Source: Candidatus Woesearchaeota archaeon (GTDB lineage Archaea; Nanobdellota; Nanobdellia; Woesearchaeales; JAZDKJ01). From it: a stretch of 35,910 nucleotides of DNA. The notes under the pieces were generated by a model. It made no database searches. It was given only the letters and a program-made list of their open reading frames with translations, and had not been told where the DNA came from. Made by a program: the position numbers and the translations under genes. Location: contig JBDRIZ010000050.1 in NCBI GenBank assembly GCA_043815525.1, positions 1 through 35,910 of the forward strand. Direction: 5' to 3'. Shown one piece after another: positions 1-35,745 of the stretch (the first letter of the stretch is position 1; every line of letters begins with the position of its first letter).

Positions 1-174
1 AGTGTGCATGTGTCAGTTCCTGTGCAGACTGCAAAAACCTGTGGCAGTGCTGCTATTAGCGCTATAAGCAAGAAAACAGCCCTCTTTTTTGCCATTATAG
101 AGGGAATCCTGGTTTACTCATATTTATATTTATTGAAAAAAGCTTCTGAAAACATAAAAACTTATATATTGTGA
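1..174 (+). CDS. possible 3' end of an upstream CDS (C-terminal hydrophobic helix)
   Basis: Frame 1 is open from the window edge for 57 codons up to TGA 172-174. The tail reads ...CGSAAISAISKKTALFFAIIEGILVYSYLYLLKKASENIKTYIL, a hydrophobic helix flanked by lysines. No start is visible and the last codons overlap the AT-rich promoter of the next gene, so coding status is uncertain. Confidence 0.3.
   Translation, partial: SVHVSVPVQTAKTCGSAAISAISKKTALFFAIIEGILVYSYLYLLKKASENIKTYIL
161..170 (+). promoter_or_regulatory. TATA-like box heading the first operon
   Basis: cttatatatt is preceded by an A-run (cataaaaa, BRE-like) and ends 28 nt upstream of ATG 198. No properly spaced SD is present. This fits an archaeal-type leaderless or short-leader start. 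Confidence 0.45.
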
Positions 175-197
175 TTTTTTTAGGTAATCACGGGGAT

Positions 198-821
198 ATG
201 GCTAATCAAAAAGATTTGAGGACTATCAGCAATCTTCAGATTGGTCCGGATTATGTCCTTGTTCATGCTAACACAAAATTCTACCCTAAAGACACTGTCT
301 ATTATGCAGCGTATGTGTTCCTTGACAGGGCACACGTGATTCTGGATGGAGATCCTGAGAAAGTTATTCTCGTTGAGCTTAGACCTAAAGACACCAAGAA
401 TCTGGAAGATCTTGGCAGGGAATTCAATAACGAGATGTTAAGCCACTTAGTATACAAGCAGCAATATGAGATGAATAAGGATGCCCGCGACGCAGTCTTC
501 CAAGAGGTGTGTGCAGGAGTTGAAAGTAGTGAAGTTCCTATTTGCAGCAGCCATGAGGATTTACAAGTATGTAATGAAACTATTGGAGAGATGGACTACA
601 CAAAAGATCCGCTTGGCATAGCAAGGCCGTGGGAAGAAGTGCATGGTAAAATTGAGGAAGGGACTGATAACAATCCACAGTACAGTTACCTGGATGATCC
701 TCTTGGTATAGCAAAGCCGTGGGAAGAGCAGCCCGGCAGGATTCTAAAAGACGAAGGTAATGATGACATGGCAAGTACTGAAAAGTCAGGCAATCATTCT
801 GCTGATGAAAAAAAGAGCTGA
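198..821 (+). CDS. hypothetical protein: ~130-aa N-terminal domain plus acidic tail with two DPLGIA[RK]PWEE repeats (candidate substrate or carrier of the rSAM system)
   Basis: The ORF track gives 171..821 (GTG). ATG 198 (MANQKDL...) fits the TATA spacing better. The N-domain reads ...YYAAYVFLDRAHVILDGDPEKVILVELRPK...EFNNEMLSHLVYKQQ... The C-terminal tail holds two 30-aa repeats. The stop overlaps the next gene start by 17 nt. Confidence 0.8.
   Translation: MANQKDLRTISNLQIGPDYVLVHANTKFYPKDTVYYAAYVFLDRAHVILDGDPEKVILVELRPKDTKNLEDLGREFNNEMLSHLVYKQQYEMNKDARDAVFQEVCAGVESSEVPICSSHEDLQVCNETIGEMDYTKDPLGIARPWEEVHGKIEEGTDNNPQYSYLDDPLGIAKPWEEQPGRILKDEGNDDMASTEKSGNHSADEKKS
594..773 (+). repeat. in-frame tandem duplication, 2 x 90 nt (30 aa)
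   Basis: Unit 1 is DYTKDPLGIARPWEEVHGKIEEGTDNNPQY and unit 2 is SYLDDPLGIAKPWEEQPGRILKDEGNDDMA. The cores at 606-638 and 696-728 are 29/33 nt identical by hand alignment. Confidence 0.8.
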
Positions 822-1701: not shown

Positions 1702-1926
1702 GTGGCTTGGAAGTGCGACAAGTGCGGCAACACAGAAAGCTTCACTGAAGTCAACACTGTCAACACGCATGTTACCCAGGATAAGAATTCCACACGGATA
1801 TTGAAGATAAATAACATTTACAGGAAGGAGGGGGCACTCAATGTCTGGTGCAACAAGTGTGACAGCGAGGATGTGTCATGGGTTGAACTCACTGACCAGG
1901 ACTCTTCATATCTTACCAGGAGTTAG
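1702..1926 (+). CDS. small Zn-ribbon-like protein (74 aa)
   Basis: A GTG start directly abuts the TAG of the previous gene. The protein has CDKC near the N-terminus and CNKC about 41 residues later (CxxC...CxxC) and an acidic C-terminus. It sits inside the translationally coupled operon. Confidence 0.6.
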   Translation: MAWKCDKCGNTESFTEVNTVNTHVTQDKNSTRILKINNIYRKEGALNVWCNKCDSEDVSWVELTDQDSSYLTRS

Positions 1927-1931: not shown

Positions 1932-3956
1932 ATGACCAAGGTTGCTGTTGTCGCGTGTGATGGATATGATAAAGTAGATTTGGCCATTGGTCGCGCAATC
2001 AGCCTTCTTGGAGGCATAAACGCTTTTGTTAAAAAGAAGCAGAAAATTTTGATTAAACCAAACTTGTGCGATCCGTTGCCTCCTGACAAGGCTGCAACTA
2101 CTCATCCTGAAGTTGCAAAATCTGTTATTGGAATTGTACTGGGGACTGGTGCAACCCCTGTTGTTGGCGAGCTTTCCGCAGGCAGCATACCTGGCAGGAC
2201 TGAAGAGGCTTTTGTTGCCACAGGCATGAAAGACGTCTGCGCTTCCACAGGGACAAGACTTGTTGATTTTCAGAAAGGTAGCTTTGTTCAGCAACATATC
2301 AAGGAGTATCTATTCCTTGAGAAAACCGACTTTGCAGAAGCTGTCCTTGACTCAGATGCAATAATCAACCTTCCAAAGCTAAAGACTCACGGTGCATGTT
2401 ACCTCACTGGTTGCGTAAAGAATCTTTTTGGGTGTATCCATCCTGAAGAGAGGGAGTATATTCATTCGCATGGTGAGAACTCCCTCAACAATGGTGTGGT
2501 GGATATTTTTTCTGTTGTCAAGAACAAGGTGGTATTGAATATTATGGACGCAGTAGTTGCAATGGAGGGTGATGAAGGCCCAAGCTACGGCAACCCAAAG
2601 AGGTTGGGTTATATTATTGCTTCCACCGATGCTGTGGCAGCAGATGCTGTCGCAGCGAAAATTACAAATCACAATCCAATGGAGATACCGATAATAAGCG
2701 ATTGCCATCACCGCAGGCTTGGCTGCGGCATCCTCAATGACATAGAAATCGTCGGAGATGGCTTTCGCCAGGTGCTTGATTTCAAGGTCCACACAAACTA
2801 CCTAAACAGGCATGACAAGGATAAAAAATCAAGGCTGCAGCCAGTAATTACATCTGCCTGCACGAGATGCTCTGCTTGCGAGAAGAGCTGCCCTGCTCAG
2901 GCGATTTCCTATAGTGATGATAAGGCAAGGTTTGAAATCGACCAAATAAAGTGCATCAAGTGCTATTGCTGCCTCGAGGTGTGCATCTTTGCGGCAATAA
3001 AGCTTGAGACTTCTGCGAGGCCAGCAGACCTTATTCGCCTCGGCCTAAACTGCAACCACAAGTGCCTGTTCTGCACTGTTGGTTTGGACAGGACTCCTGA
3101 TCTGTCCACAAAAGAGGTAATGAACCTCATCGATGTTTTGGCTGCGAATGGTTCGCAGAAACTTGCTTTTACCGGCGGAGAACCAACTTTGAGGCCTGAC
3201 CTTTTTGCTCTGGTGGCATACGCACGATCAAGGGGGATTAAGATAATTGAGTTGCAGACCAACGCTTCAGAAATTTCCAAAGCAGGCTATGCAAAAGCAA
3301 TAACTGACGCTGGAATCAGCCATTTCATGGTCGCCCTGCACTCGGACAAGGAAGAGGTTTACAACAAGCTTACACAAAGCAGGCATTTCAAAAACGCTGT
3401 TGGAGGAGTAAAAAATCTGCTTAAGTTTCCTGTAACAATAACAATTTCGCATGTGATAAATTCAGAGAACTATAAGGGCCTTGAGTCGTTTGTCAATTTT
3501 GTGCATTCAGAATTTCTTGCAAAACCATGCATTTATTTTGGTTTTGTGAGGCCGAATGGCACTGCAAAGGCAAACAAGTGGATTGTTCCAAAGATGAGCC
3601 TTGTCGAGCCATACCTGCATAAGGCTTTTGCAAAATGCGCAGCTCTTGGGATTGTTTTCATGGTTGAGGGTTTGCCTTTATGCTACATGCAGGGTTACGA
3701 GCAGCATAACGACGAGACAAGGCGCCTGCTCTGTTCTCCGGCTGTGCATCTCGAGGCAGGTGTTGTAAGAGATGACACTCATAAGAGGCATCTTGTGGAC
3801 AATAAAGGAGAGGCAGAGTGCTGCGATGTCTGCAGCCTGTCCAAACTGTGCCCGAGAGTCTGGAAAGAGTATTCTGACATCTACGGGACTGGCGAGCTTT
3901 TTCCTGTATTTGACGAGAAACTAAAGGATAGTCTGAAGGTGTTTTTCAGTGGTTGA
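1932..3956 (+). CDS. tri-domain fusion: DUF362 + 2x[4Fe-4S] ferredoxin + small-family radical SAM
   Basis: The N-terminus has DUF362 hallmarks: KVAVVACDGYD, ILIKPNLCDP...ATTHPEV, LPKLKTHG...TGCVKNLFG, DAVVAMEGDEGPSYGNP. The ferredoxin motifs CTRCSACEKSCP and CIKCYCCLEVC start at nt 2859. The rSAM core has CNHKCLFC (nt 3051-3074), FTGGEPTLRPD, LPLCYMQGYE and CDVCSLSKLCPRVWKEY. AGGAG lies 9 nt upstream of the ATG. Confidence 0.92.
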   Translation: MTKVAVVACDGYDKVDLAIGRAISLLGGINAFVKKKQKILIKPNLCDPLPPDKAATTHPEVAKSVIGIVLGTGATPVVGELSAGSIPGRTEEAFVATGMKDVCASTGTRLVDFQKGSFVQQHIKEYLFLEKTDFAEAVLDSDAIINLPKLKTHGACYLTGCVKNLFGCIHPEEREYIHSHGENSLNNGVVDIFSVVKNKVVLNIMDAVVAMEGDEGPSYGNPKRLGYIIASTDAVAADAVAAKITNHNPMEIPIISDCHHRRLGCGILNDIEIVGDGFRQVLDFKVHTNYLNRHDKDKKSRLQPVITSACTRCSACEKSCPAQAISYSDDKARFEIDQIKCIKCYCCLEVCIFAAIKLETSARPADLIRLGLNCNHKCLFCTVGLDRTPDLSTKEVMNLIDVLAANGSQKLAFTGGEPTLRPDLFALVAYARSRGIKIIELQTNASEISKAGYAKAITDAGISHFMVALHSDKEEVYNKLTQSRHFKNAVGGVKNLLKFPVTITISHVINSENYKGLESFVNFVHSEFLAKPCIYFGFVRPNGTAKANKWIVPKMSLVEPYLHKAFAKCAALGIVFMVEGLPLCYMQGYEQHNDETRRLLCSPAVHLEAGVVRDDTHKRHLVDNKGEAECCDVCSLSKLCPRVWKEYSDIYGTGELFPVFDEKLKDSLKVFFSG

Positions 3957-4776
3957 CTTAGGCATTGGAGACAGATGCAACAGCAGTTGCATAATGTGCA
4001 CAACAGTGAGGCCAGAGGACAAAAAGGTGGAGAACCGCATGCTCTCAAAGGAAGAGGTCTTTTCGATGATTGACAAAATGGAGAGGCCACCTTACATAGC
4101 TATCACAGGTGGCGAGCCTACAATAAGAAAAGACTTAACCGAGATAGTAGGTCATGCCAGAAATCGTTTTCCAGCTGCAGAGATAAAGCTTTTGACAAAC
4201 GCCAGGATGGCCAGCTATCCTGACTACGCAAACGACTTGCTCAGCACAGGTATTGATGTGTATATAATCCCTTTGCACAGCCATCACCCTGACCTTCATG
4301 ATTTTGTAACAAGGACAAAAGGAAGCTTTGTTCAGACCGTACAGGGCATCAGGAATTTATCAAAGGCAAAGATCGAGATAAGGATAGTCATCCATGGGAT
4401 TAACTATCCATTCCTTCCAGAGACTGCAGAGTTCATCAGGGATAATTTCCCCGGCGCCTCGGTTGTTATGATTTATTTTGACATAATTGGCAGCGCATTC
4501 ATCAACAGGGATCGGCTTGTTGTGCAGATGACCAGGATAGCACCTTATCTCGAAAAGGCTATTGATGTCTTGCAGCAGAATGACATCCATACCTATCATT
4601 TTCCTTTATGCGTCCTTGGCCTGCGCTACCGCGATAGTGCCAAAGGTGTGACTGTTGTTGGTCACAGGATAATGTTCGCAGACAGTTGTGCAGCATGCAG
4701 CATGAAGTCTAAGTGTTGCGGGATTTGGAAAGCTTATGCAAAGCTGGTCGGTACCGGAGAGTTCAAGCCAATATGA
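3949..4776 (+). CDS. radical SAM protein, small paralogue family (short type)
   Basis: The GTG start overlaps the upstream stop by 8 nt. Motifs: CNSSCIMC, ITGGEPTIRKD, LHSHHPDLHDFVTRTKGSFVQTVQGIRNL, FPLCVLG, CAACSMKSKCCGIWKAYAKLVGTGEF. Confidence 0.9.
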   Translation: MVDLGIGDRCNSSCIMCTTVRPEDKKVENRMLSKEEVFSMIDKMERPPYIAITGGEPTIRKDLTEIVGHARNRFPAAEIKLLTNARMASYPDYANDLLSTGIDVYIIPLHSHHPDLHDFVTRTKGSFVQTVQGIRNLSKAKIEIRIVIHGINYPFLPETAEFIRDNFPGASVVMIYFDIIGSAFINRDRLVVQMTRIAPYLEKAIDVLQQNDIHTYHFPLCVLGLRYRDSAKGVTVVGHRIMFADSCAACSMKSKCCGIWKAYAKLVGTGEFKPI

Positions 4777-6137
4777 AACGAGTTGTTTTGGTCTGGCCTT
4801 TTGACCACTGCCACTCGCCTAGCCTTTCTCTTTTGTACCAGGCAAAGATATTGAATGGTTCCTATGATGTTTCCGTTGTTTATTCAAACCAGCTTTTCTC
4901 TTCTGATAATCTTAGTCTGCCTCTTGAGGTGCAAGAAGAGCCTGAGCGTAGCCTAAAAAAGGTTGCAAGCGTGGTTGCCAAGCTGGATCCTGATTACGTA
5001 TGCATCGGAAGCTACAGGCAGCACACTCCTTTTATTGACAGGTTTGCCAAGCAGTTCCGGATGCAGCATGATGCTGCCTTGATTGCAACCGGCTATGTCC
5101 CGACATTTTCTCCAGAGGAGATGCTTTCTTTGACACCTGAGATTGAATTCATTCTTCGCGGCGAATCTGAGCGCTCGCTTAAGAATTTGTTGGACAGTCT
5201 TTCCAAATCACAAAGTCAGTCTGAAGTGAAAGGGCTTTCTATGAAAAAAGATGGAGTCTTCCATCACAACCCGACCGACAGAATTGAAGATTTGGATTCA
5301 CTGCCTTTGTTTGATTTTGAGGATATTGTGGGAAACAGGCCAAAAAGGATTGACATCCGCTCTTCTCTGGGTTGCATTATGGACTGCCGCTTCTGCGGTC
5401 TTCACAAGATGTGGCCAAGGCCTGTCAGGTATCATAGCGAAGATTATGTGCTTCGCCAAATCAAGCATCTGGACAGCCTGTATTCCATGGAGTTTGTGCA
5501 TTTTATAGACGAGATGTTTCTCTGTAATGTCAAAAGGGCAGAGTCTCTTGCGCAAGCCATCCACAGGAATTTTCCTTATCTTAAATGGGGTTGCATGTTC
5601 AGAAATGATACAGTTAGCGAGTCTGTAGCAAGCCTGCTGAAAGATTCTGGCTTGGTTAACGCAGCTGTTGGAGTGGAATCCAACAACCCAAAGGTGTTGC
5701 AGTTCCTGCAAAAGACCAAGTCGCCATCCAGCTACCTCGCAGGCATTAACAAGAATATTGACATGCTAAAGGAGAAGCTTGAGTTCCTTGAGTTGGGTTT
5801 TATCACAGGCACTCCTGTTGAGACTGCGTCAGACATCCTTTCGCTGATTGAGTTTGTGCAGGATATTAAAAATGACAGGAAAGAGCTGAAGGACCTGAGG
5901 ATAGCGCTTGGAAGGCTTGTCATCTACGCAGGTTCGGATCTCTATTCAAGAATTGGTCAGTTCAACATGGTCAAGGATGAGATGAGGTATTCTGCATACC
6001 AGAAATTCTTCGAAGCAGGCTATGACCGCTTGTTCTGGGCTGTTCCGTGGAACTATCTTGCAGAAAATAAGAACTTCAGGAGCCATGCAGACTACATGGA
6101 GATTCTATCCAAAGCTTTCGAGGCTGCAAGAACATGA
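4773..6137 (+). CDS. B12-binding-domain-type (class B-like) radical SAM protein
   Basis: The ORF track gives 4713..6137. ATG 4773 forms an ATGA overlap with the upstream stop (MKRVVLVWPF...). The N-terminal Rossmann-like region carries RGESERSLKNLLDSL, followed by SSLGCIMDCRFCGL (CX3CX2C) about 215 aa in. Confidence 0.88.
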   Translation: MKRVVLVWPFDHCHSPSLSLLYQAKILNGSYDVSVVYSNQLFSSDNLSLPLEVQEEPERSLKKVASVVAKLDPDYVCIGSYRQHTPFIDRFAKQFRMQHDAALIATGYVPTFSPEEMLSLTPEIEFILRGESERSLKNLLDSLSKSQSQSEVKGLSMKKDGVFHHNPTDRIEDLDSLPLFDFEDIVGNRPKRIDIRSSLGCIMDCRFCGLHKMWPRPVRYHSEDYVLRQIKHLDSLYSMEFVHFIDEMFLCNVKRAESLAQAIHRNFPYLKWGCMFRNDTVSESVASLLKDSGLVNAAVGVESNNPKVLQFLQKTKSPSSYLAGINKNIDMLKEKLEFLELGFITGTPVETASDILSLIEFVQDIKNDRKELKDLRIALGRLVIYAGSDLYSRIGQFNMVKDEMRYSAYQKFFEAGYDRLFWAVPWNYLAENKNFRSHADYMEILSKAFEAART

Positions 6138-7968: not shown

Positions 7969-8798
7969 TCTATGCCCTGACAGACAAGTGCAACCTGAAC
8001 TGCATCTTCTGTTCTAACGAGGATTTTAAGACATTTTTTAGCCCTCCAGATTACTTGCCGCCTTCACTAAAGGAGATTGAGCAATGGTTTTCGAGCGTGC
8101 CAAGAAGCGAGGAGAACATCACTCTGACTGGTGGTGAGCCAACCTTAAGGCCTGATTTGTTTGAGGTTTTGGACTTTCTGTCAGCTTCTTACCAGAAAGC
8201 CTGCATCACGCTTCTGACAAATGCCAGGAGGTTTGCTTACGATGATTACGCTGCTAAGTTTGCAAAATATGAGCGTTTGGAGATAGAGATTCCAATTCAT
8301 TCGCATTATGAGCGTGTCCACGATGCTCTTACAGGGTTTGCCGGTAGCTTCAGCCAGACCTTAAAAGGCATACAGAACCTCACAAGCCTTGGTGTCAGGA
8401 CTAATATCAGGGTTGTAATAAACAAACTGAACTATAAAGAACTCGAACAGATGATGCATTTCCTGAAATCAACAGGTGGAATAAACAGGGTGGTTTTCAT
8501 CAACATGCGAATCAAGGGCAGGGCCTCGCTTAACAAGGATGCTCTTCTTGTGAAGTACAAGGAGAGCATGCCATATCTCCGCAAGGCCCTTGCCTTTCTT
8601 AAAGGCAATGGGATTGGAATCCAGTTGCTTCACTTCCCATTTTGCGTTATTGACAAGGGGTACTGGTCATGCACCCTGGAAAATCCCTACAAGGCAAAGG
8701 CCTCTGCCTGTGCAAGCTGCTCTGTTGAAAAAAGATGCCCTGGAATGCTGGACTGCTACTTGAGAATTGTTGGAGAAAAGGAGTTCGTGGCACTATGA
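7962..8798 (+). CDS. radical SAM protein, small paralogue family (short type)
   Basis: ATG 7962 overlaps the upstream TAG. Motifs: CNLNCIFC, LTGGEPTLRPD, IHSHYERVHDALTGFAGSFSQTLKGIQNL, FPFCVIDKGY, CASCSVEKRCPGMLDCYLRIVGEKEF. Confidence 0.9.
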   Translation: MVVYALTDKCNLNCIFCSNEDFKTFFSPPDYLPPSLKEIEQWFSSVPRSEENITLTGGEPTLRPDLFEVLDFLSASYQKACITLLTNARRFAYDDYAAKFAKYERLEIEIPIHSHYERVHDALTGFAGSFSQTLKGIQNLTSLGVRTNIRVVINKLNYKELEQMMHFLKSTGGINRVVFINMRIKGRASLNKDALLVKYKESMPYLRKALAFLKGNGIGIQLLHFPFCVIDKGYWSCTLENPYKAKASACASCSVEKRCPGMLDCYLRIVGEKEFVAL

Positions 8799-9742
8799 AA
8801 TCTATCAAGCGAATGGCAGCCAATATTACACTAATGTTGGTAGTGTTTTTTATAGGTATGGGAATTGCTGAGCTGCTCTCATCATTTTTACTTGGTAAGA
8901 ACCCACCAATTTATACGACAGGCATGACAGTTGCTGGTGTTGATTTGCAGCATGAGATGGAAATCCTAGCTATTCATGAAGGCAGATTTGAGGTAATTGT
9001 TCCGGACAATGATAATTACCGGATAGCCGTGATTGGCGATTCAGTAACAATGGGCGGCGGTCTCAACCTGTCACAGACTTACATACCTAAGCTTGAGCAG
9101 CTTATTGAGACTCGTTTCCACAAAGATATCAGGATTATGAATTTTGCCAATGGCGGCACAAGCACGTATCAACACCTCGAGATACTGGAGAGATTTGTGT
9201 TGCCAAATACACCTGACTTGGTGATTCTCCAGATGAATGAGAATGACTACCAGATAAGAGAGGACATAACCCGCAACACCGCAGCCCTTGATAGGGTTCG
9301 GAGGCTGCTTTTGAGCAAAAAGGACCTGTCGCTTCCTCGATGGTTAAACTACAAGATTCAACTCTACCAATATGACGTGTACATAAGTAACATGAACAAT
9401 ACTGTAATGACATCCAACGTGCTGTCCCCGCTCAATAAGTTTGTCCATCTCCTACAGGAGGAGGATATACCATTTATTTTGTTCAGGGTACCTTGTCCGG
9501 GAGACTTCAAGGAGTACATATATTTTGATAGTGTCGAAAAGTACATCAAAGATGAGGGTTATCCTTATTTCGACCTGATGGGCACCACGTTCGGTCAATT
9601 GGACCCTCATGCTGCATATATGAGTGTCTCCCCCGATGGTAAGGTGCTTGACAGCCATCCTCTTGAGATCGGTCACGACATAATAGCTCAACAACTTTTT
9701 ACGCTGATTGTGCAGGGAGGATACATCAAAGAAGATGGATAG
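8795..9742 (+). CDS. membrane-anchored SGNH/GDSL-type hydrolase
   Basis: The ORF track gives 8735..9742. ATG 8795 gives an ATGA overlap. There is an N-terminal TM helix (ANITLMLVVFFIGMGIAELL). SGNH blocks: IAVIGDSVTMGGG (I), NFANGGTS (II), ILQMNENDY (III), LDSHPLEIGHDIIA (V). Confidence 0.8.
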   Translation: MKSIKRMAANITLMLVVFFIGMGIAELLSSFLLGKNPPIYTTGMTVAGVDLQHEMEILAIHEGRFEVIVPDNDNYRIAVIGDSVTMGGGLNLSQTYIPKLEQLIETRFHKDIRIMNFANGGTSTYQHLEILERFVLPNTPDLVILQMNENDYQIREDITRNTAALDRVRRLLLSKKDLSLPRWLNYKIQLYQYDVYISNMNNTVMTSNVLSPLNKFVHLLQEEDIPFILFRVPCPGDFKEYIYFDSVEKYIKDEGYPYFDLMGTTFGQLDPHAAYMSVSPDGKVLDSHPLEIGHDIIAQQLFTLIVQGGYIKEDG

Positions 9743-10643
9743 GCCAAAAAGGGTCGACATAAGGTTTGGCTACAGCTGCAATAACAATTGCATCTTTTGC
9801 ATAGACAAGGACTCAAGGAACAAGTATCCTGACATGACGACCAATCAGGTCAAACTCATCATAAAAGAAGCTGCAGGTAAGGGTGCTGAGCAGCTGACCT
9901 TCACTGGAGGAGAGCCGACAATCCGAAAAGATATTTTCGACCTTGTGTCATACGCTAAGAGCCTTGGCTTCAAGACCATAATGTTTACCACAAACGCAAG
10001 GATGCTGTCCTACTATCCTTTTGCAAAAAAGCTTACAGAAGTTGGCGTGAACAAGTATATGATATCATTACACGCACATACAAATGAGCTCTACGCCAAG
10101 CTAACCCAGACAGGTGGCTTTGACCAGGCTGTGCAGGGAATCAGAAATATTGTAAGCTTGCAGCAGAAGATCTGTGCAAGCTTTGTAGTTAACAAGCACA
10201 ACTACAGGATTCTTCCCGAATATGCGAGGTTCCTTGTAACTATAGGCATCACTAGTCTATTGCAGATGACCTATGTTATGCCTTGCGGAGGAGACCTGAG
10301 ACTGAACAGCCAGAACATTCCGAGCCTAACTGACGCAACACCATTCATCAAGAGGACAATTGATTTAAGAGAAAGTATCGGAATAGCGGAGATGATAGTG
10401 ATGGACGTGCCATTCTGCTTCCTGCAGGGCTACGAAAAGCACATTAACGAGCTTAACATTCCGCATATGGAGATTCACGCCGCAAACCCCGAGCACTCCA
10501 CTGATGACTACAATTTAAGAAGGAAGACAAACAAGGTCAAGCCAAGGCAGTGCAGAACATGCAGGCATGATGCTGTCTGCGAGGGTGTCTGGCCAGAGTA
10601 TGCAGAGATTTATGGGTTTGAGGAACTGGTTCCAGTGAACTAA
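9735..10643 (+). CDS. radical SAM protein, small paralogue family (long type)
   Basis: The ORF track gives 9708..10643. ATG 9735 gives MDRPKRVDIRFGYSCNNNCIFC. Further motifs: FTGGEPTIRKD, VPFCFLQGYE, CRTCRHDAVCEGVWPEYAEIYGFEE. Confidence 0.9.
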   Translation: MDRPKRVDIRFGYSCNNNCIFCIDKDSRNKYPDMTTNQVKLIIKEAAGKGAEQLTFTGGEPTIRKDIFDLVSYAKSLGFKTIMFTTNARMLSYYPFAKKLTEVGVNKYMISLHAHTNELYAKLTQTGGFDQAVQGIRNIVSLQQKICASFVVNKHNYRILPEYARFLVTIGITSLLQMTYVMPCGGDLRLNSQNIPSLTDATPFIKRTIDLRESIGIAEMIVMDVPFCFLQGYEKHINELNIPHMEIHAANPEHSTDDYNLRRKTNKVKPRQCRTCRHDAVCEGVWPEYAEIYGFEELVPVN

Positions 10644-11632
10644 TGATTAAAGCAAAGAGATTGTTAATGAACATCTCGCTTAGCATGATTATTATATTTC
10701 TGATGATCTCTGGCATTGAGCTGTATCTTAGGATTCACTACTCTGGCTTGCTAGCTCAGATACTGACTGGCAAAATGACTGGCTATCCCAATGCCGTGGA
10801 ATCTCTGGGCAAGCTCAGCCAAGGCTATCCTCTCACCCCTAATACAACTGTGGTTTACACTGGATACCTTACATTCCTACAGCCATCAACAATAACAACA
10901 AATAGCCAAGGATTTCGTGATGTTGAGCACAATAAGGGCAAGCCGGCAAATACTGTTCGTATTTTAAGTCTTGGGGATAGTGTCGCTTTCGGTGAGGGTG
11001 TCAATCTGGAAGATACATACGCCAAGGTTCTGGAGAGAAAGCTAAACAATCATAGTACAAAGAAGTACGAAGTCTTGAACTTTGGTCGTTTTGCCTACGG
11101 AACCATGGACGAACTTGAGCTTCTTGAGAAGAAAGGCTTGGATTATAGTCCTGACATCGTCATTTTGATGATGGTCTATAATGACTTTCAGAATGTGGGT
11201 ACTGTTCAGAATGACAACTTGTTATTGGAATCTGTCAGGAGGGATACTGCAAATTCAAGCTTGAGACTCTCACAATGGTTGGATAGAAAGCTTACTATCT
11301 TGGAATATAGGAAAAGCGAAAATATGTACAATGAGACAGACAAATACAATCTCGTAAAATTGCCCTTGGAAGGCATTATCAATCTTTGCCTTCAGCATGA
11401 TATCCATTTGATGGTGCTCCAGTATCACGGCCACCAGCCATATATGGATGATATCAGTAATTTTCTCGCAACACAGGGTATTAGAACCATAGACCTACAG
11501 AAGTCAAAATTGGTGACAGACTACAGAAATGGAGAAATTATGTTGCCAGACGGACATCCTACGCCTCTTGGCCACCAGATTATAGCAGATATATTATTTG
11601 AGAATCTTATTGAGGAAAAAATCTTGAAATGA
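10643..11632 (+). CDS. membrane-anchored SGNH/GDSL-type hydrolase (paralogue of 8795..9742)
   Basis: 1-nt overlap with the upstream TAA. There is an N-terminal TM helix (MNISLSMIIIFLMISGIELYL). SGNH blocks: ILSLGDSVAFGEG, NFGRFAYGT, ILMMVYNDF, LPDGHPTPLGHQIIA. Confidence 0.8.
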   Translation: MIKAKRLLMNISLSMIIIFLMISGIELYLRIHYSGLLAQILTGKMTGYPNAVESLGKLSQGYPLTPNTTVVYTGYLTFLQPSTITTNSQGFRDVEHNKGKPANTVRILSLGDSVAFGEGVNLEDTYAKVLERKLNNHSTKKYEVLNFGRFAYGTMDELELLEKKGLDYSPDIVILMMVYNDFQNVGTVQNDNLLLESVRRDTANSSLRLSQWLDRKLTILEYRKSENMYNETDKYNLVKLPLEGIINLCLQHDIHLMVLQYHGHQPYMDDISNFLATQGIRTIDLQKSKLVTDYRNGEIMLPDGHPTPLGHQIIADILFENLIEEKILK

Positions 11633-12528
11633 GTCAGATAGAAGAGCCAAGATATTGTTTATTTGAACATAAGTATGAGAACAAAGAATGGGTGGGGTAT
11701 ACAAAATTTATCCCGGAAGTCCTTGCAGTTAGGATTGGTGTTAAGCCGGTAATGAGAATCCCAATCAATCCTAATTTTGGGTACCCTAAGTTCAAAGAGC
11801 TGTGCAAAAGATTCGGTCTTGTGACGGGACTCTCAGATTACCAAATTAGGGAGCCCTACACACCAAAGGATATCCTGCCTTCTAAAACGCCTTATGGGCA
11901 CTATTTCATGTATGTTAGCAGAACGCAGGACCTGATTGAGCTGGCAAAAAAGTATGATTTATACGACCAGGATAGGTTCGGAGAGCTAATGGGCTATCCC
12001 CGGTGCTGCATTGACTATTACAGTCGAGTTTCAAACTCTCCCCCAGTCCACGAGGTTTATGGTTATGTGCATAGCAAAAGACCACTGTTTTGGCAGAATA
12101 ATTATCTATTACGCTTTAATTCCAACTACTATCTTCATGCATATTTTTTATGTTCTTTTGACTGCATGGATTCAAGGAAGCGGGGGCAGAAGATATTCGA
12201 AGCAATAAGGAAATTTGATGAGGTGTATGCAAGAAAGATAGAGCACCATCTCAAGCTTCCAATCCTCTTGGATGACACAAGGCCAGGAGGGATTCTTCAC
12301 AACTGGGACCGGCTCAAGGGCGTTGTTTTCAACGGTTCTTGGCATAATAATATCATTGTCTACTCAGGTCAATTGTCCCTTTGGCAGGGAGCATACTTCC
12401 CGATTTTTTCGAAATCCAATCAAGTTTTAATAAATGCAGATTCAATGTACCTATATTCCGATGGTAGGTTGATAGGAAAGATTAAAATAACAAACAATTT
12501 TGAGTCATTTTTCCTGCAATTTAGTTAA
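11629..12528 (+). CDS. hypothetical Cys-motif protein (GYPRCC ... C-x3-C)
   Basis: ATGA overlap with the upstream gene and GAGG upstream. The conserved-looking motifs are FGELMGYPRCCIDYY and HAYFLCSFDCMDS. There is no TM segment. It is the last gene of operon 1. I do not recognise the family with confidence. Confidence 0.8.
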   Translation: MSQIEEPRYCLFEHKYENKEWVGYTKFIPEVLAVRIGVKPVMRIPINPNFGYPKFKELCKRFGLVTGLSDYQIREPYTPKDILPSKTPYGHYFMYVSRTQDLIELAKKYDLYDQDRFGELMGYPRCCIDYYSRVSNSPPVHEVYGYVHSKRPLFWQNNYLLRFNSNYYLHAYFLCSFDCMDSRKRGQKIFEAIRKFDEVYARKIEHHLKLPILLDDTRPGGILHNWDRLKGVVFNGSWHNNIIVYSGQLSLWQGAYFPIFSKSNQVLINADSMYLYSDGRLIGKIKITNNFESFFLQFS

Positions 12529-12765: not shown

Positions 12766-13662
12766 ATGAAACGGATCGATATCAAGGTAGATTATCGATG
12801 TAACAATAATTGCATTTTTTGCGTCATAGGCGAAGAGGGGCGCAAAGCCAAAGGAGTCACCGTTAGTGAGATAAAAAAAGAACTTGATTTTGCCAGACAA
12901 AGTGGAGCAACAGAGGTAGCTTTCACTGGCGGTGAGCCGACGATTCGAAAGGAAATAATTGAATTGATCAAATATGCCAAAAATTTGGATTATAAAAGTA
13001 TCATGCTGATAACGAATGGGAGAATGCTGTCGAAAAAAGAATTTGCCAGAAAGAGTGTTAATGCCGGATGTAACAAGTTCATGTTTAGCATCCACGGCAT
13101 CGGTAATAACCATGATGATTTAACAAGATCACCCGGAAGTTTTAAGCAAGCAATACAGGGCATGAAAAACATAAAAAATCTTGGACAAGAGATGATAAGT
13201 GACACTGTAGCTACAAAGCAGAACTACAAGAACCTTCCGGAAATTATCCATACCCTCATTAATCATGGTTCTCAAATCTGCCAGATTGATTTTGTCATTC
13301 CTTCCGGTAATGCTCTGAAATTCAAAGAAATCGTTTTGCCAAGGTTGAGCGAGTGCGCACCTTATGTTCATAAGACAATAGACTATGTCACAAACAAGGG
13401 AAAGAGCCAGATTATTGTTATGGGAATTCCAAATTGCTTTATGAAGGGTTATGAGACATACATGAATGAGCCGCGCGTTCCGTCAATCAACATTGTGTCC
13501 CCTCAGAGTGTGCATGCTGAAGTGGACTACAATACACAAAGAAAAAGCAACAAAGTGAGACTGGATGCATGTTGTGTATGTGAACATTTTATTAGGTGTG
13601 AAGGTATATGGCCTAATTATCTAGCACAATTCGGACAAGGTGAGTTCGTTCCAGAAAGATGA
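12766..13662 (+). CDS. radical SAM protein, small paralogue family (long type)
   Basis: Motifs: MKRIDIKVDYRCNNNCIFC, FTGGEPTIRKE, IHGIGNNHDDLTRSPGSFKQAIQGMKNI, IPNCFMKGYE, CCVCEHFIRCEGIWPNYLAQFGQGEF. Confidence 0.92.
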   Translation: MKRIDIKVDYRCNNNCIFCVIGEEGRKAKGVTVSEIKKELDFARQSGATEVAFTGGEPTIRKEIIELIKYAKNLDYKSIMLITNGRMLSKKEFARKSVNAGCNKFMFSIHGIGNNHDDLTRSPGSFKQAIQGMKNIKNLGQEMISDTVATKQNYKNLPEIIHTLINHGSQICQIDFVIPSGNALKFKEIVLPRLSECAPYVHKTIDYVTNKGKSQIIVMGIPNCFMKGYETYMNEPRVPSINIVSPQSVHAEVDYNTQRKSNKVRLDACCVCEHFIRCEGIWPNYLAQFGQGEFVPER

Positions 13663-14318
13663 ACTTGAAAGACATCGCTCGTATCAAGATGGCTGCAGTC
13701 TACATAATGGCTTTTCTTTTGATTGCCAGCATCTATCTAAATATTAGGGTGTTATCCCACGATTTTTGTTCCTTGAACATGAAGCAGACTGCTGAGGAAA
13801 AGCGCATGGTATATGCCAAGGAAAGGAATTATTCTCAGGATGGGGTTCCATTGAAGACTTTCAGGAAGTTTGACTATGACTGGAAGGATTCTGTTACAAT
13901 AACTAGCATTTCAGCAAGTTCCTTGGAAGACAGTGGAGCTAACCTAAAGGACTTGAGTGCCTCGCTTGCAAACAACAGCATACTGATAAGGTTGACATCA
14001 GCTGACAAATTCAATTCTGAGTTAGGCTATGACTTTTACTTATATGGCACCAATCATTACCAGATTAGGGTTTTTCCGGGTGTTGGTTATTATGTTTATA
14101 AGCAGGTGGATCAATCGCCAGAGATAGAGCATGTTGAAGGTAGCAGTAACATCTATGTGTACAACGACGAGAGAATATTGACCATCAGGTGCCCCTTGAA
14201 TATTTTGAATGTTGGCCAGCAGGTGGATATAAATGTGGCTGTCTTTAGTCCTGTCACCATGACATTTGATAAAAGCCAGTTTACAAAACCGATTGTTCTT
14301 GCTGTGCCGAAAGGATAG
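13659..14318 (+). CDS. signal-anchored extracytoplasmic protein, paralogue family A (1 of 4)
   Basis: ATGA overlap with the upstream gene. There is an N-terminal TM helix (AAVYIMAFLLIASIYL). Shared blocks are NLKDLSASLANNSILIRLTS and YDFYLYGTNHYQIRVFPGVGYYVYKQ, compared with 28597..29244, 18005..18793 and 18803..19312. Confidence 0.8.
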   Translation: MNLKDIARIKMAAVYIMAFLLIASIYLNIRVLSHDFCSLNMKQTAEEKRMVYAKERNYSQDGVPLKTFRKFDYDWKDSVTITSISASSLEDSGANLKDLSASLANNSILIRLTSADKFNSELGYDFYLYGTNHYQIRVFPGVGYYVYKQVDQSPEIEHVEGSSNIYVYNDERILTIRCPLNILNVGQQVDINVAVFSPVTMTFDKSQFTKPIVLAVPKG

Positions 14319-18802: not shown

Positions 18803-19312
18803 ATGGCAGAAATATTAGACTTGGACCAGGATAGCTTTCAAAACCATCTTATTGGAGTGAGTGAGAAGGGGAAAGGCAAATTCAAGATTGAAGGATCCGA
18901 CTTGAAAGGGCTTTATGCATACATTTTGGATTCGTATGTATTAATAAAATTGGAACTTTTTGAATTGTTGAATCCAAAGATTACCTATTATTTTGCTATT
19001 GCGCCAGCGATGCAAAAACGCAATATTCGGAAGGTGTACCAGATTTTGGCCGGAGGCTTCGTGAAAGGCAGCGAAGGTAAGGTAATGCTCTGGGAACAAA
19101 AAATCGTTGACGAGCGGAAATTGCCACCGGAAAAGAAGGATAGCAGTAAGATAAAGGTCGTAGCGGGTGACGTTTACCTGATCTTACAAATTCCCATTAC
19201 ATTGGTTGAACTTAATCCCAGCCATGGCCCCCCTACTTTGCGTGAAGTCAATGCTGGTGTTATGGTGGATGAAGTTGTGGATGACAATCAACTTTCCGAA
19301 AAAATTGAATAA
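18803..19312 (+). CDS. soluble member of paralogue family A (3 of 4)
   Basis: SDLKGLYAYILDSYVLIKLEL and YYFAIAPAMQKRNIRKVYQILAGG align with the family blocks. No N-terminal TM helix is present. Confidence 0.75.
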   Translation: MAEILDLDQDSFQNHLIGVSEKGKGKFKIEGSDLKGLYAYILDSYVLIKLELFELLNPKITYYFAIAPAMQKRNIRKVYQILAGGFVKGSEGKVMLWEQKIVDERKLPPEKKDSSKIKVVAGDVYLILQIPITLVELNPSHGPPTLREVNAGVMVDEVVDDNQLSEKIE

Positions 19313-29244: not shown

Positions 29245-29368
29245 AATAAGTGGAGTCAACTTTTTTGGTGCTACGCATACAACTTGTAGGTTTTCCTCCT
29301 CGCGAAGTCTTTGATGAGGAAAACCGTTAGTGCGCTTATCAGCAAACAGTTGATTTATCCCCAATAGG

Positions 29369-29379
29369 TTTTATATATT
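29369..29379 (+). promoter_or_regulatory. TATA-like box
   Basis: ttttatatatt ends 25 nt upstream of ATG 29405. Confidence 0.45.
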
Positions 29380-29404
29380 GTCTATTATTTAAGCATTTGC
29401 AGGG

Positions 29405-34857: not shown

Positions 34858-35185
34858 TCCTTATCCTCTTTATTCCCTTCTTAAGGTATGGCAGGTCTTT
34901 TTCTATAACCATCCATACGCGTTCGATATTTACTCCAAAGTACGCGTGGCTTAATATGTCTCTTAGGCCTGCAATGTCTTTCCAGGGGATATCCGGGTAT
35001 TTCTCTCTAAAACCTGATGGAATGTTTTTGACAGCTTCTCCTATGACCTCCAGTTGCCTTATCACTGCGCTTTGCCTCAGCTTGTCTTTGGAAAATTTTT
35101 CCTTATTCAGTCCCAGGGTGAATTCCTCAATGTTTCTTATGCTTTCCAGGATGTCATCTACAAATAATCCTATGTCTCTTTTCAT
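34811..35185 (-). CDS. hepT: HepT-type HEPN (DUF86) toxin
   Basis: The 124-aa protein starts MKRDIGLFVDDILESIRNIEEF and has an Rx4H HEPN motif (RDILSH). An ATGA overlap links it to the upstream nucleotidyltransferase gene. The 3' end overlaps the convergent rSAM gene by 47 nt. Confidence 0.9.
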   Translation of the reverse strand: MKRDIGLFVDDILESIRNIEEFTLGLNKEKFSKDKLRQSAVIRQLEVIGEAVKNIPSGFREKYPDIPWKDIAGLRDILSHAYFGVNIERVWMVIEKDLPYLKKGIKRIRTSEYKTHPKDKSLRS

Positions 35186-35655: not shown

Positions 35656-35666
35656 AAGGTGTTTAT

Positions 35667-35699: not shown

Positions 35700-35745
35700 A
35701 CAAAGGGTGTTCTGCCGTTGCCTGCTTAAGGTGCTCATGAAATAA

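What the first reader, a model, noticed from the sequence alone, without database searches (positions are those of the whole stretch)
1932..3956. DUF362 + 2x[4Fe-4S] ferredoxin + radical SAM fused in one 674-aa protein
Residues 1-300 carry the DUF362 hallmarks (KPNL, TTHP, KTHG...KN.FG, AMEG..GP..G.P). Residues ~310-360 carry two CxxCxxCxxxCP-type ferredoxin motifs. Residues ~365-674 are a full member of the small rSAM family.

DUF362 is an uncharacterised family that is often ferredoxin-linked. A covalent link to an rSAM core suggests it acts as a built-in electron-input or redox module for reductive SAM cleavage. It might serve the whole paralogue set, since no flavodoxin or other reductase is encoded here. 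If so, this fusion would be a functional clue for DUF362 itself.
Basis: partly seen in the sequence, partly recalled or inferred. Interest (0 to 1): 0.7.

Follow-up and report, generated by a model that had tools for sequence, protein, structure and literature searches.

The report
DUF362–ferredoxin fused to radical SAM maturase
A real, conserved archaeal gene joins an enzyme-like domain of unknown function and its built-in iron-sulfur "wire" to a radical SAM protein-modifying enzyme, and this recurring link is the first concrete clue to what the unknown domain works with.

Summary
ORF 1932-3956 (+) encodes 674 aa with DUF362 (178 bits), a 2x[4Fe-4S] ferredoxin domain and a Radical_SAM core plus a 4-Cys C-terminal domain.

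The fusion is not an artefact. A 92%-identical copy from an independent assembly is colinear with no indel. At least 16 protein clusters (90% identity), on DPANN-type archaeal MAG contigs where named, carry the partnership.

The domain order varies: DUF362-Fer4-rSAM, rSAM-DUF362-Fer4, or rSAM-DUF362-Fer4-rSAM. In a complete Micrarchaeota genome the parts are unfused but have overlapping stops and starts.

The rSAM half is HxsC-like. Related loci carry bona fide HxsB and HxsD, and the window starts with an HxsD-like gene. The window is therefore a hugely expanded archaeal cousin of the bacterial HXS protein-maturation (antiphage) system, with 18 rSAM genes.

DUF362 has the LarA (nickel-pincer lactate racemase) fold. 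It appears to keep the His/Lys/His positions of LarA's cofactor site, so it looks like an enzyme rather than a passive redox tag.

Best reading (about 0.45): DUF362-Fer4 is a self-contained oxidoreductase module recruited as the in-cluster redox partner of these rSAM enzymes. Outside DPANN and some anammox bacteria, DUF362-Fer4 shows no rSAM linkage.

The parts
171..821 (+). HxsD-like small protein (216 aa) with a C-terminal duplicated DPLGIA(R/K)PWEE motif
   Evidence: NCBIfam TIGR03976 HxsD: E=2.8e-9, 37.2 bits, below the cut-off of 50. The orthologue in L090 carries a weak PF27806 HxsD hit. In the bacterial HXS system HxsD binds HxsC (PMC13128918).
760..1701 (+). R1: HxsC-like small radical SAM enzyme (313 aa), immediately upstream of the fusion
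   Evidence: Radical_SAM 81 bits. HxsC4 scores 158 bits and HxsC 115 bits, both below their cut-offs. R1 is orthologous to the N-terminal rSAM that is fused to DUF362-Fer4 in P0015 and P0016: 340-346 bits, against 221 bits or less for the other paralogues.
1702..1926 (+). 74-aa four-Cys (CxxC...CxxC) zinc-ribbon-like ORF that exactly fills the R1/fusion gap
   Evidence: A 58%-identical ORF lies next to the DUF362-Fer4 gene in Woesearchaeota locus L013, at 4713-4934. It is called as a gene in L090. Only sub-threshold zinc-ribbon Pfam hits were found.
1932..3956 (+). The fusion gene: DUF362 - 2x[4Fe-4S] ferredoxin - HxsC-like radical SAM (674 aa)
1932..2786 (+). DUF362 domain (residues 1-285), LarA-like two-lobed fold. 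K42, N44, T57, D142, K149, K151, H153, T159, K163, G167, H178, D206 and D238 are invariant.
   Evidence: Pfam PF04015, 178.5 bits. AF2 model pLDDT 96.2. The top 17 Foldseek PDB hits are all LarA-family enzymes, E down to 2.7e-7. Invariant residues come from the 44-sequence alignment.
2844..2993 (+). Two-cluster [4Fe-4S] ferredoxin domain (residues 305-354)
   Evidence: Fer4, Fer4_9, Fer4_10 and Fer4_7 score above their cut-offs. PDB sequence hits include clostridial ferredoxins, MvhB and NuoI/TYKY. The eight Cys are invariant.
3042..3503 (+). Radical SAM core (residues 371-524): C374/C378/C381 and the GGEPT SAM-binding motif
   Evidence: PF04055, 73.9 bits. Foldseek hits include BlsE, GDGT-MAS, SkfB, SuiB, MoaA and viperin.
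3504..3953 (+). C-terminal domain of the HxsC-like family, with four invariant Cys (C584, C631, C634, C640). A probable auxiliary Fe-S site.
   Evidence: Alignment of 13 fusions. The HxsC4 profile match runs to the end of the protein, residues 368-659. That this is an auxiliary cluster is an inference.
3949..4776 (+). R3: the window's best HxsC match (275 aa). Its start overlaps the fusion's stop by 8 nt.
   Evidence: TIGR03977 HxsC: E=1.2e-52, 178.7 bits, cut-off 267.9. Coordinates.

Best explanation
ORF 1932-3956 is a genuine natural fusion of two units that work together.

Unit 1 is DUF362-Fer4. It is a self-contained oxidoreductase-like module. It has a LarA-fold catalytic domain that probably holds a cofactor or metal at the conserved H153/K163/H178 site. 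It is always followed by its own two-[4Fe-4S] ferredoxin domain.

Unit 2 is an HxsC-like radical SAM enzyme with an additional four-Cys C-terminal site.

The gene sits in an expanded archaeal (DPANN-type) relative of the His-Xaa-Ser (HXS) protein/peptide maturation system. The window holds an HxsD-like gene, 12 small HxsC-like rSAM genes and 6 B12-rSAM genes.

The most likely role of DUF362-Fer4 is as the cluster's own redox partner. Its ferredoxin domain relays single electrons between the DUF362 active site and the Fe-S clusters of the attached rSAM, and probably of neighbouring rSAMs. The most probable direction is inward, priming the [4Fe-4S] cluster for reductive SAM cleavage.

Shown: the architecture, the fold, the conserved partnership and the HXS kinship.
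Inferred: the electron path, its direction, the donor, and service to other paralogues.
For: (1) Architecture and conservation.
- HMM scores are above the cut-offs for all three domains.
- All 15 Fe-S Cys are invariant in 13 fusions at 36-92% identity.
- An independent assembly is colinear, with a synonymous-biased substitution pattern.

(2) A recurrent partnership in variable topology.
- DUF362-Fer4-rSAM occurs in P0001-P0013.
- rSAM-DUF362-Fer4 occurs in P0015, P0016, P0123 and P0126.
- rSAM-DUF362-Fer4-rSAM occurs in P0003.
- The N-terminal rSAM of P0015/16 is the orthologue of window R1, the upstream neighbour. The C-terminal rSAM of the other fusions is the orthologue of the window's fused half.

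(3) An unfused state exists.
- In the complete genome of Ca. Fermentimicrarchaeum limneticum the order is rSAM(330)-DUF362Fer4(374)-rSAM(298), with overlapping stops and starts.
- In L013, L014, L015 and L019 stand-alone DUF362-Fer4 is flanked by HxsC-like rSAMs.

(4) The window has one ferredoxin module for 18 CxxxCxxC ORFs and no other CxxCxxCxxxC motif.

(5) A second, independent lineage shows the link. In 25 Brocadia/Kuenenia-type loci a B12-binding rSAM lies directly upstream on the same strand.

(6) Some relatives join DUF362-Fer4 only to a Cys-rich domain resembling the rSAM family's C-terminal domain, giving a chain of Fe-S sites (weak, E=0.06).

(7) There is a precedent. Most glycyl-radical activating enzymes carry a two-cluster ferredoxin-like domain in cis (PMC13450708).

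(8) HXS kinship.
- HxsB scores 397 and 477 bits (cut-off 370) in related loci L002 and L006.
- HxsD scores 57.8 and 52 bits (cut-off 50) in L002 and L008.
Against: - No experiment or structure shows electron transfer. The inter-domain geometry of the AF2 model is uncertain (pTM 0.60, ferredoxin pLDDT 59-83).
- DUF362's fold is that of an enzyme that does hydride chemistry on a bound cofactor, not of any known electron-input module.
- In 23 phylogenetically diverse loci, stand-alone DUF362-Fer4 has no consistent rSAM neighbour. rSAM service therefore cannot be the family-wide function.
- DUF362-Fer4 is also found fused to a lipid A-type acyltransferase.
- Neighbouring genes of these arrays fuse readily. 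Many tandem rSAM-rSAM fusions exist, so fusion alone is weaker evidence than usual.
- The fusions to "different" rSAM types are simply fusions to the two flanking genes of one conserved block.
Confidence: 0.45

Rival explanations
1. DUF362-Fer4 is a tailoring oxidoreductase of the same pathway. It acts on the same substrate, or a pathway intermediate, before or after the rSAM step. The ferredoxin domain serves only DUF362's own catalysis, and fusion merely channels the substrate.
For: - DUF362 has the LarA enzyme fold, with conserved residues at the LarA catalytic-His and cofactor positions.
- DUF362-Fer4 is an autonomous unit found widely without rSAM neighbours.
- It has other enzyme fusion partners: a lipid A acyltransferase and GT4.
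- It holds a fixed position inside a conserved block, R1-(Zn-ribbon)-DUF362Fer4-R2, as a pathway step would.
Against: - There is one copy per array of up to 18 rSAMs.
- The same module sits next to a different class of rSAM (B12-type) in anammox bacteria.
- No substrate is known.
Confidence: 0.3
2. The module is an electron sink rather than a source. The ferredoxin clusters accept the electron released from the substrate radical through the four-Cys C-terminal cluster during an oxidative cross-link or desaturation. They then pass it to the DUF362 site, which reduces some acceptor.
For: - The bacterial HXS modification is net oxidative (+C -4H, +8 Da; PMC13128918).
- The HxsC-like family has an invariant extra four-Cys site.
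- Some relatives join DUF362-Fer4 to that C-terminal-like domain alone, without an rSAM core.
Against: - The homology of those tails to the rSAM C-terminal domain is weak (E=0.064).
- No chemistry is known for the archaeal system.
- In SPASM/twitch enzymes the electron is usually thought to return to the radical SAM cluster (general knowledge, not tested here).
Confidence: 0.1
3. The fusion is a neutral by-product of genome compaction. Adjacent, overlapping genes in DPANN arrays merge easily, and there is no direct functional coupling beyond co-expression.
For: - Many tandem rSAM-rSAM fusions of two to four domains occur in the same family.
- Genes in the window and in L016 overlap by 4-8 nt, so losing a single stop fuses them.
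Against: - Adjacency is conserved across Nanoarchaeota/Woesearchaeota-, Aenigmatarchaeota- and Micrarchaeota-labelled contigs at 34-50% identity.
- The fused form persists over 36-92% identity with linkers intact.
- Codon changes are synonymous-biased.
Confidence: 0.1
4. The fusion is an assembly or gene-calling artefact, with a missed stop or frameshift at a junction.
For: None found. The window's own reads were not available.
Against: - The same 2025-nt ORF without indels occurs in an independent run (SRR27458547).
- At least 16 clusters at 90% identity, from NCBI, JGI, ENA and Logan assemblies, have the same architecture.
Confidence: 0.02

Closest known systems
HxsC, the radical SAM maturase of the His-Xaa-Ser (HXS) antiphage system (TIGR03977; Nat Commun 2026, PMC13128918)
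   Same: - The rSAM half and all small paralogues in the window hit HxsC or HxsC4 best or near-best.
- An HxsD-like gene precedes them.
- Related archaeal loci with the same fusion carry HxsB and HxsD above NCBIfam cut-offs, in the bacterial order HxsD-HxsB-HxsC.
   Different: - Scores are far below the equivalog cut-offs: 74.7 versus 267.9 for the fused half.
- The window has no HxsB and no His-Xaa-Ser repeat protein.
- The system is archaeal, whereas HXS is reported as 99.7% Pseudomonadota.
- There are 12 small plus 6 B12-type rSAM paralogues instead of two.
- A DUF362-Fer4 module is attached, which bacterial HXS lacks.
LarA, the nickel-pincer nucleotide (NPN) lactate racemase and its 2-hydroxyacid racemase/epimerase homologues (DUF2088/PF09861; PDB 5HUQ, 6C1W, 7S91, 9Q3K)
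   Same: - Same Pfam clan, CL0471 (PMC11770544).
- The top 17 Foldseek hits for the DUF362 model are all LarA-family.
- Colinear alignments place invariant DUF362 H153, K163 and H178 on LarA H174 (catalytic), K184 (NPN tether) and H200 (Ni ligand).
- Some true LarA proteins carry a precomputed PF04015 hit.
   Different: - There is no significant sequence match.
- LarA H108 has no His counterpart.
- DUF362 is shorter (about 285 versus 424 aa).
- DUF362 is almost always followed by a two-cluster ferredoxin, which implies net redox chemistry rather than racemisation.
- No lar biosynthesis genes appear in any locus examined.
Stand-alone DUF362-ferredoxin proteins (COG2006; NCBIfam Npun_F2552 family as nearest curated model)
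   Same: The N-terminal 360 residues are 34-52% identical to hundreds of 370-400-aa DUF362-Fer4 proteins. These come from anammox Planctomycetota, Methanoperedens, Chloroflexota, Margulisiibacteriota and others.
   Different: - Those proteins are not fused to rSAM.
- Except in Brocadia/Kuenenia-type anammox bacteria, they are not next to an rSAM gene.
- The Npun_F2552 score is 124 bits against a cut-off of 500.
Glycyl-radical-enzyme activating enzymes with an in-cis ferredoxin-like two-cluster domain (e.g. the 4-hydroxyphenylacetate decarboxylase activase)
   Same: A radical SAM core is covalently joined to an eight-Cys, two-[4Fe-4S] ferredoxin-like domain (PMC13450708).
   Different: - In those enzymes the ferredoxin domain is an insert in the rSAM enzyme, and its role is still unknown.
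- Here it is N-terminal and comes as the tail of a separate DUF362 enzyme-like domain.

Membership tests
Pfam DUF362 (PF04015) | HMM score at or above the gathering threshold (24 bits) over the whole profile | tested here: met
   178.5 bits, E=2.1e-52, profile positions 1-200 of 200.
2x[4Fe-4S] bacterial-type ferredoxin domain (Fer4 clan) | Two CxxCxxCxxxC(P) motifs and an HMM score above threshold | tested here: met
   C310/313/316/320-P and C341/344/347/351 are present. Fer4 scores 28.0 (cut-off 21.1), Fer4_9 28.5 (27), Fer4_10 27.9 (25.5) and Fer4_7 27.7 (27). All eight Cys are invariant in 13 homologues. The second motif lacks the trailing Pro.
Radical SAM superfamily (PF04055) | CxxxCxxC cluster motif, GGE-type SAM motif, and HMM score above threshold | tested here: met
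   C374/C378/C381 and GGEPT 415-419 are present. The score is 73.9 bits against a cut-off of 29.5. The partial TIM-barrel fold matches BlsE, SkfB, MoaA and viperin.
HxsC equivalog (TIGR03977) / HxsC4 (NF038332) | NCBIfam score at or above the curated cut-off (267.9 / 500) | tested here: not met
   The fused half scores 74.7 and 82.3 bits. The best window paralogue, R3, scores 178.7 bits. These are HxsC-like proteins, not HxsC.
HXS system (HxsA-HxsB-HxsC-HxsD) | An HxsA effector with His-Xaa-Ser repeats encoded in the locus | tested here: not met
   A six-frame scan found no ORF with dense HxS repeats.
HXS system (HxsA-HxsB-HxsC-HxsD) | An HxsB rSAM/SPASM maturase (TIGR03978, cut-off 370) in the locus | tested here: not met
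   The window has no ORF of about 480 aa of rSAM/SPASM type. The 92% relative L090 has an opposite-strand gene upstream of HxsD. HxsB is present above the cut-off in related loci L002 (397 bits) and L006 (477 bits).
HXS system (HxsA-HxsB-HxsC-HxsD) | HxsD (TIGR03976, cut-off 50 bits) in the locus | tested here: inconclusive
   Window ORF 171-821 scores 37.2 bits, E=2.8e-9, below the cut-off. HxsD in L002 and L008 scores 57.8 and 52.0 bits, above it.
LarA / NPN-dependent racemase superfamily (PF09861, DUF2088) | Sequence membership (HMM or PDB sequence match) | tested here: not met
   There is no Lar_N hit in Pfam. No PDB sequence hit was found with the single sequence or the profile.
LarA / NPN-dependent racemase superfamily (PF09861, DUF2088) | LarA two-domain fold | tested here: met
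   The top 17 Foldseek hits are all LarA family, E from 2.7e-7 to 8.4e-4, TM-score (query-normalised) about 0.45-0.54.
LarA / NPN-dependent racemase superfamily (PF09861, DUF2088) | Cofactor-tethering Lys184, Ni-ligand His200, catalytic His108 and His174 | tested here: inconclusive
   hhalign and HMMER give the same register: H153=H174, K163=K184, H178=H200. All three residues are invariant in 44 DUF362 sequences. The alignments are not statistically significant (E 0.14-0.3), and H108 has no counterpart. One profile run gave a spurious short hit instead.
LarA / NPN-dependent racemase superfamily (PF09861, DUF2088) | Bound nickel-pincer nucleotide; larB/larC/larE present in the genome | not testable with these tools
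   No lar genes were seen in any fetched locus. Whole genomes could not be scanned.
SPASM/twitch rSAM subfamily | PF13186 SPASM hit with a 7-Cys motif | tested here: not met
   There is no SPASM hit in the fusion. Only a four-Cys set is present (C584, C631, C634, C640).

The most novel reading that the evidence does not exclude
DUF362 is a second family of enzymes built on the LarA scaffold. It would carry a Lys-tethered nickel-pincer-type (or other hydride-accepting) cofactor at K163/H178. Through its obligatory two-cluster ferredoxin tail it would split a two-electron donor into low-potential single electrons. That would make it a new class of dedicated reductase for radical SAM enzymes. It could also be the "missing" non-LarA NPN-binding protein inferred for the roughly 15% of genomes, notably cyanobacteria, that have larB/C/E but no larA (PMC11796402). 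The nearest curated model for DUF362 is the cyanobacterially named Npun_F2552 family.
Probability: 0.08. Interest if true: 0.9.

Novelty: new variant of a known kind. Interest (0 to 1): 0.6.

Why it matters
DUF362 (COG2006) is a large family found across anaerobic bacteria and archaea, with no assigned function. A full-text search for "DUF362" found no functional study.

This work adds three concrete handles:
- A repeatedly fused or adjacent partner, the HxsC-like radical SAM enzymes.
- A fold and candidate active site (LarA-like, H153/K163/H178).
- An obligatory Fe-S wire.

Together these make the family testable as an oxidoreductase that talks to radical SAM enzymes.

The work also extends the newly described HXS maturation/antiphage system, reported as 99.7% Pseudomonadota, to DPANN-type archaea. 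There it occurs in a very different, massively expanded form, with 18 rSAM genes in 36 kb.

If the module is a dedicated reductase, it would bear on how tiny-genome archaea power many radical SAM enzymes. It could also supply a portable reductant partner for rSAM enzymology.

Tried and rejected
- PDB sequence searches with the whole protein and with a DUF362-only profile found nothing for residues 1-300. The fold had to be obtained by AF2 plus Foldseek.
- The full-length Foldseek search was swamped by rSAM hits. A separate DUF362-only model was needed.
- Global hhalign against LarA failed.
- hhalign against a LarA profile built from the 14 selected hits (77-99% identical) gave a spurious 11-residue match, DAIINLPKLKT versus DQAINTPRLKT. 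The residue mapping is therefore reported as probable only.
- A scan for His-Xaa-Ser repeat ORFs in the window was negative.
- A search for a common neighbour of stand-alone DUF362-Fer4 in 23 diverse loci (112 ORFs) found no family in more than 3 ORFs. There was no rSAM enrichment and no lar genes.
- A tblastn search of PLSDB plasmids gave 4 uninformative hits.
- PADLOC gave only generic viperin-like rSAM similarity for the fusion.
- Homology between the Cys-rich tails of the 540-aa DUF362-Fer4 forms and the rSAM C-terminal domain was only weakly supported (E=0.064).
- I considered treating the very large multi-domain proteins (for example P0197, 1826 aa) as independent fusions. I rejected this without caveat, because merged gene calls cannot be excluded.
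- Literature searches for Npun_F2552, PF04015 and COG2006 gave nothing functional.
Full report
**1. Observation**

The ORF at 1932-3956 on the + strand starts with ATG, is 674 codons long and is uninterrupted.

Pfam scoring confirms all three parts:
- DUF362 at 178.5 bits, over the complete 200-position profile (residues 39-243).
- Several two-cluster ferredoxin models above their gathering scores (residues 305-354).
- Radical_SAM at 73.9 bits (residues 371-524).

I aligned the protein with 12 full-length relatives at 36-92% identity. There are no gaps at the junctions relative to the closest copy. The eight ferredoxin Cys, the CxxxCxxC triad (C374/C378/C381) and GGEPT are invariant. So is a further four-Cys set in the C-terminal domain (C584, C631, C634, C640).

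A 92%-identical protein comes from an unrelated sequencing run (SRR27458547, locus L090). It lies in the same gene order:
- HxsD-like gene, rSAM, a 74-aa ORF, then the fusion.
- Its ORF has the identical length.
- There is no indel.
- Codon differences are 72 synonymous versus 52 non-synonymous, with only three substitutions in the two linkers.

The fusion is therefore real and under purifying selection. The artefact explanation is effectively excluded, although the window's own reads were not available.

**2. How common is it, and in what forms**

The word-indexed search found these forms:
- 13 clusters (90% identity) with the same DUF362-Fer4-rSAM order.
- Two clusters with the rSAM at the N-terminus (P0015, P0016).
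- One cluster with an rSAM at both ends (P0003, 974 aa).
- Forms of about 540 aa in which DUF362-Fer4 carries only a Cys-rich tail or head (P0017-P0020, P0026, P0028, P0032).
- Hundreds of ordinary 370-400-aa DUF362-Fer4 proteins.

The exhaustive HMMER scan of 1.84 billion 50%-identity representatives found only about a dozen representatives with DUF362 and rSAM in one chain. The fusion is rare.

Source names and GTDB record titles place the fusion, and its unfused neighbours, in several groups:
- Nanoarchaeota, Woesearchaeota, Aenigmatarchaeota and Micrarchaeota.
- Unclassified archaeal MAGs.
- One contig binned as Campylobacterales.

No genome in the GTDB representative set is close to the window (best 45-50%). 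Its origin is inferred to be an unrepresented DPANN-type archaeon.

**3. The partnership is older than the fusion**

In the complete genome of Ca. Fermentimicrarchaeum limneticum (L016), a 374-aa stand-alone DUF362-Fer4 lies between two small rSAM genes. Its start and stop overlap those genes, and four more rSAM genes precede it.

In L013, L014, L015 and L019, stand-alone or tailed DUF362-Fer4 is likewise flanked by HxsC-like rSAMs.

An all-against-all BLAST gave two results:
- The window's fused rSAM half is the orthologue of the C-terminal rSAM of the other fusions: 196-298 bits, against 186 or less for window paralogues.
- The N-terminal rSAM of P0015/P0016 is the orthologue of window R1 (760-1701), the gene just upstream: 340-346 bits, against 221 or less.

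The ancestral state is therefore a conserved block, rSAM_A - DUF362Fer4 - rSAM_B. It has fused leftwards, rightwards or both ways in different lineages.

A caveat applies. The same family shows many tandem rSAM-rSAM fusions, so neighbours in these compact arrays merge readily.

**4. What the locus is**

NCBIfam places all small rSAM paralogues of the window nearest to HxsC or HxsC4, below the equivalog cut-offs. The first ORF of the window is HxsD-like (37 bits, cut-off 50).

Loci that carry the same fusion encode bona fide components, in the bacterial order HxsD-HxsB-HxsC:
- HxsB at 397 and 477 bits (cut-off 370).
- HxsD at 57.8 and 52 bits (cut-off 50).

HXS was described in 2026 as an antiphage system (PMC13128918):
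- HxsB and HxsC mature the HxS-repeat effector HxsA, adding a +8 Da modification.
- HxsC binds HxsD.
- 99.7% of systems are in Pseudomonadota.

The window differs from that system:
- It has no HxsA-like repeat protein.
- It has no HxsB.
- It contains 12 small HxsC-like rSAM genes, one of them frameshifted, and 6 B12-binding rSAM genes.
- It also encodes two GDSL/SGNH-like proteins, DUF483, a TPR protein, a PMT_2 glycosyltransferase, a corrinoid protein, a URO-D/MtaA-like methyltransferase and a RACo-like activase.

It is best described as an expanded archaeal relative of HXS with an unknown substrate, not as a member of HXS.

**5. What DUF362 is**

No solved structure matches DUF362 by sequence.

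An AF2 model of residues 1-299, built on 44 homologues, is very confident (pLDDT 96.2, pTM 0.94). Its 17 best PDB neighbours are all LarA-family enzymes that use the nickel-pincer nucleotide. They include lactate and malate racemases and single-His LarA-like enzymes, with E from 2.7e-7 to 8.4e-4. The next hits are unrelated and insignificant. This agrees with Pfam clan CL0471 (PMC11770544).

I recovered the LarA sequence of PDB 5HUQ exactly. Local hhalign and glocal HMMER give the same colinear register over 100-280 residues:

| DUF362 residue | LarA residue | LarA role |
|---|---|---|
| H153 | H174 | catalytic |
| K163 | K184 | cofactor tether |
| H178 | H200 | Ni ligand |

LarA H108 has no His partner. 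The three DUF362 residues are invariant in 44 diverse sequences.

The sequence alignments are not statistically significant on their own (E 0.14-0.3). One run against a low-diversity LarA profile produced a spurious short hit. The mapping is therefore probable, not proven.

The conserved domain has no invariant Cys. DUF362 thus looks like a cofactor- or metal-binding catalytic domain. The ferredoxin that almost always follows it, and always on its C-terminal side whatever the position of the rSAM, looks like its own electron wire.

**6. Is rSAM linkage general for DUF362?**

No.
- In 70 loci outside the DPANN clade, the HxsC-family HMM finds essentially no neighbours.
- Clustering of neighbours showed a B12-binding rSAM directly upstream, on the same strand, in 25 Brocadia/Kuenenia-type loci.
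- Scalindua loci instead have a nitroreductase and an enolase as neighbours.
- 112 neighbour ORFs from 23 diverse lineages share no family in more than three cases.
- Other fusion partners include a lipid A-type acyltransferase. One 1826-aa protein combines a B12-binding domain with two Radical_SAM domains, DUF362-Fer4, GT4 and TPR domains; it may be a merged gene call.

DUF362-Fer4 is therefore an autonomous unit that has been recruited to rSAM systems at least in DPANN archaea, and possibly in anammox bacteria.

**7. Mechanism**

The favoured reading is that DUF362-Fer4 is the cluster's own redox partner. The arguments for it:
- It is the only ferredoxin-type element among 18 rSAM genes.
- There is one copy per array in every locus examined.
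- The ferredoxin lies within about 20 residues of the rSAM core in the window protein.
- Relatives join the module to a domain resembling the rSAM family's Cys-rich C-terminus.
- A two-cluster ferredoxin in cis is a known feature of most glycyl-radical activases (PMC13450708).

The direction of flow (electron input for SAM cleavage versus electron removal), the donor or acceptor at the DUF362 site, and service to other paralogues are all inferences.

The main rival is that DUF362-Fer4 is simply another tailoring enzyme of the pathway. This fits its enzyme-like fold and fixed position in the block, and cannot be excluded. I give about 0.45 to the redox-partner model, 0.3 to the tailoring model, 0.1 to an electron-sink variant, 0.1 to neutral fusion and 0.02 to artefact.

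**8. Novelty and verdict**

The proteins exist in public databases, labelled only "DUF362 domain-containing protein". I found no paper on DUF362 function, on this fusion, or on archaeal HXS-like systems.

It is a new variant of known kinds: an HxsC-like rSAM maturase with a LarA-fold/ferredoxin module.

The most novel reading not excluded has three parts:
- DUF362 is a second LarA-scaffold, pincer-type cofactor enzyme.
- It acts as a dedicated rSAM reductase.
- It could be the missing NPN-binding protein of organisms that have larBCE but lack larA (PMC11796402).

I rate that reading at about 8%.

Noticed in passing
window 1702-1926 (+); L013 4713-4934; L090 2046-2270: An unannotated 74-aa ORF with two CxxC knuckles (zinc-ribbon or rubredoxin-like) exactly fills the gap between R1 and the fusion. 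It is 58% conserved next to the DUF362-Fer4 gene of a Woesearchaeota MAG. It could be a substrate or scaffold, or a small metal/electron protein of the core block.
   Followed up: partly
window 760-34857: The window has an extraordinary density of radical SAM genes. Eighteen ORFs carry CxxxCxxC in 36 kb: 12 small HxsC-like and 6 B12-binding. Nearly all are on the + strand, many with overlapping stops and starts.
   Followed up: partly
window 33932-34857 (+): One small rSAM paralogue is split by a frameshift. The CxxxCxxC-bearing N-terminus (33932-34162) is in a different frame from the remaining 247 aa (34114-34857). This is either a pseudogene or a sequencing error.
   Followed up: no
window 26149-31044: This stretch holds a corrinoid methyl-transfer set and one B12-rSAM (27264-28610). 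The set is a RACo-like activase lacking the usual N-terminal Fe-S domain (26149-27267), a URO-D/MtaA-like methyltransferase (29405-30421) and a B12-binding corrinoid protein (30418-31044). Further B12-rSAM genes flank the stretch. It may recharge or supply cobalamin for the rSAM methylases.
   Followed up: no
window 13659-14318 (+), 18803-19312 (+), 28597-29364 (-): These are paralogous proteins of unknown function. The 13659 and 28597 ORFs match at E=3e-14, and both have an apparent N-terminal membrane anchor. They are interspersed among the rSAM genes and are possible substrates or surface products of the system.
   Followed up: partly
window 8735-9742 and 10643-11632 (+); 20842-22560 (-); 11629-12528 (+): These ORFs are two paralogous membrane-anchored GDSL/SGNH-like proteins, a PMT_2-type glycosyltransferase and a DUF483 protein. 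PMT_2 and DUF483 recur in the related archaeal loci (L001, L002, L008). This hints at a cell-surface, glycan or lipid target.
   Followed up: no
window 31031-32281 (-), 34811-35703 (-): There is an AAA_14/DUF4143 ATPase (PADLOC candidate family PDC-S01, 220 bits) and a HepT/MNT toxin-antitoxin pair (MNT matches PDC-S09). Such genes are typical of defence islands, which is interesting given that bacterial HXS is antiphage.
   Followed up: no
whole window: Cumulative GC skew rises almost monotonically across the window, and G+C drops from about 0.46 to about 0.40 between 11 and 23 kb. This suggests one replichore or one transcription direction, and possibly a mosaic origin.
   Followed up: no
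L023-L088 (Brocadia/Kuenenia-type anammox loci): In 25-29 of these loci there is a conserved trio: B12-binding rSAM, DUF362-Fer4, MgtE divalent-cation transporter. This is an independent DUF362-rSAM adjacency, with a metal transporter immediately downstream.
   Followed up: partly
proteins P0256-P0258 (true LarA): Some authentic nickel-dependent lactate racemases carry a precomputed PF04015 (DUF362) hit alongside Lar_N. This shows that the two families touch at the sequence level.
   Followed up: partly
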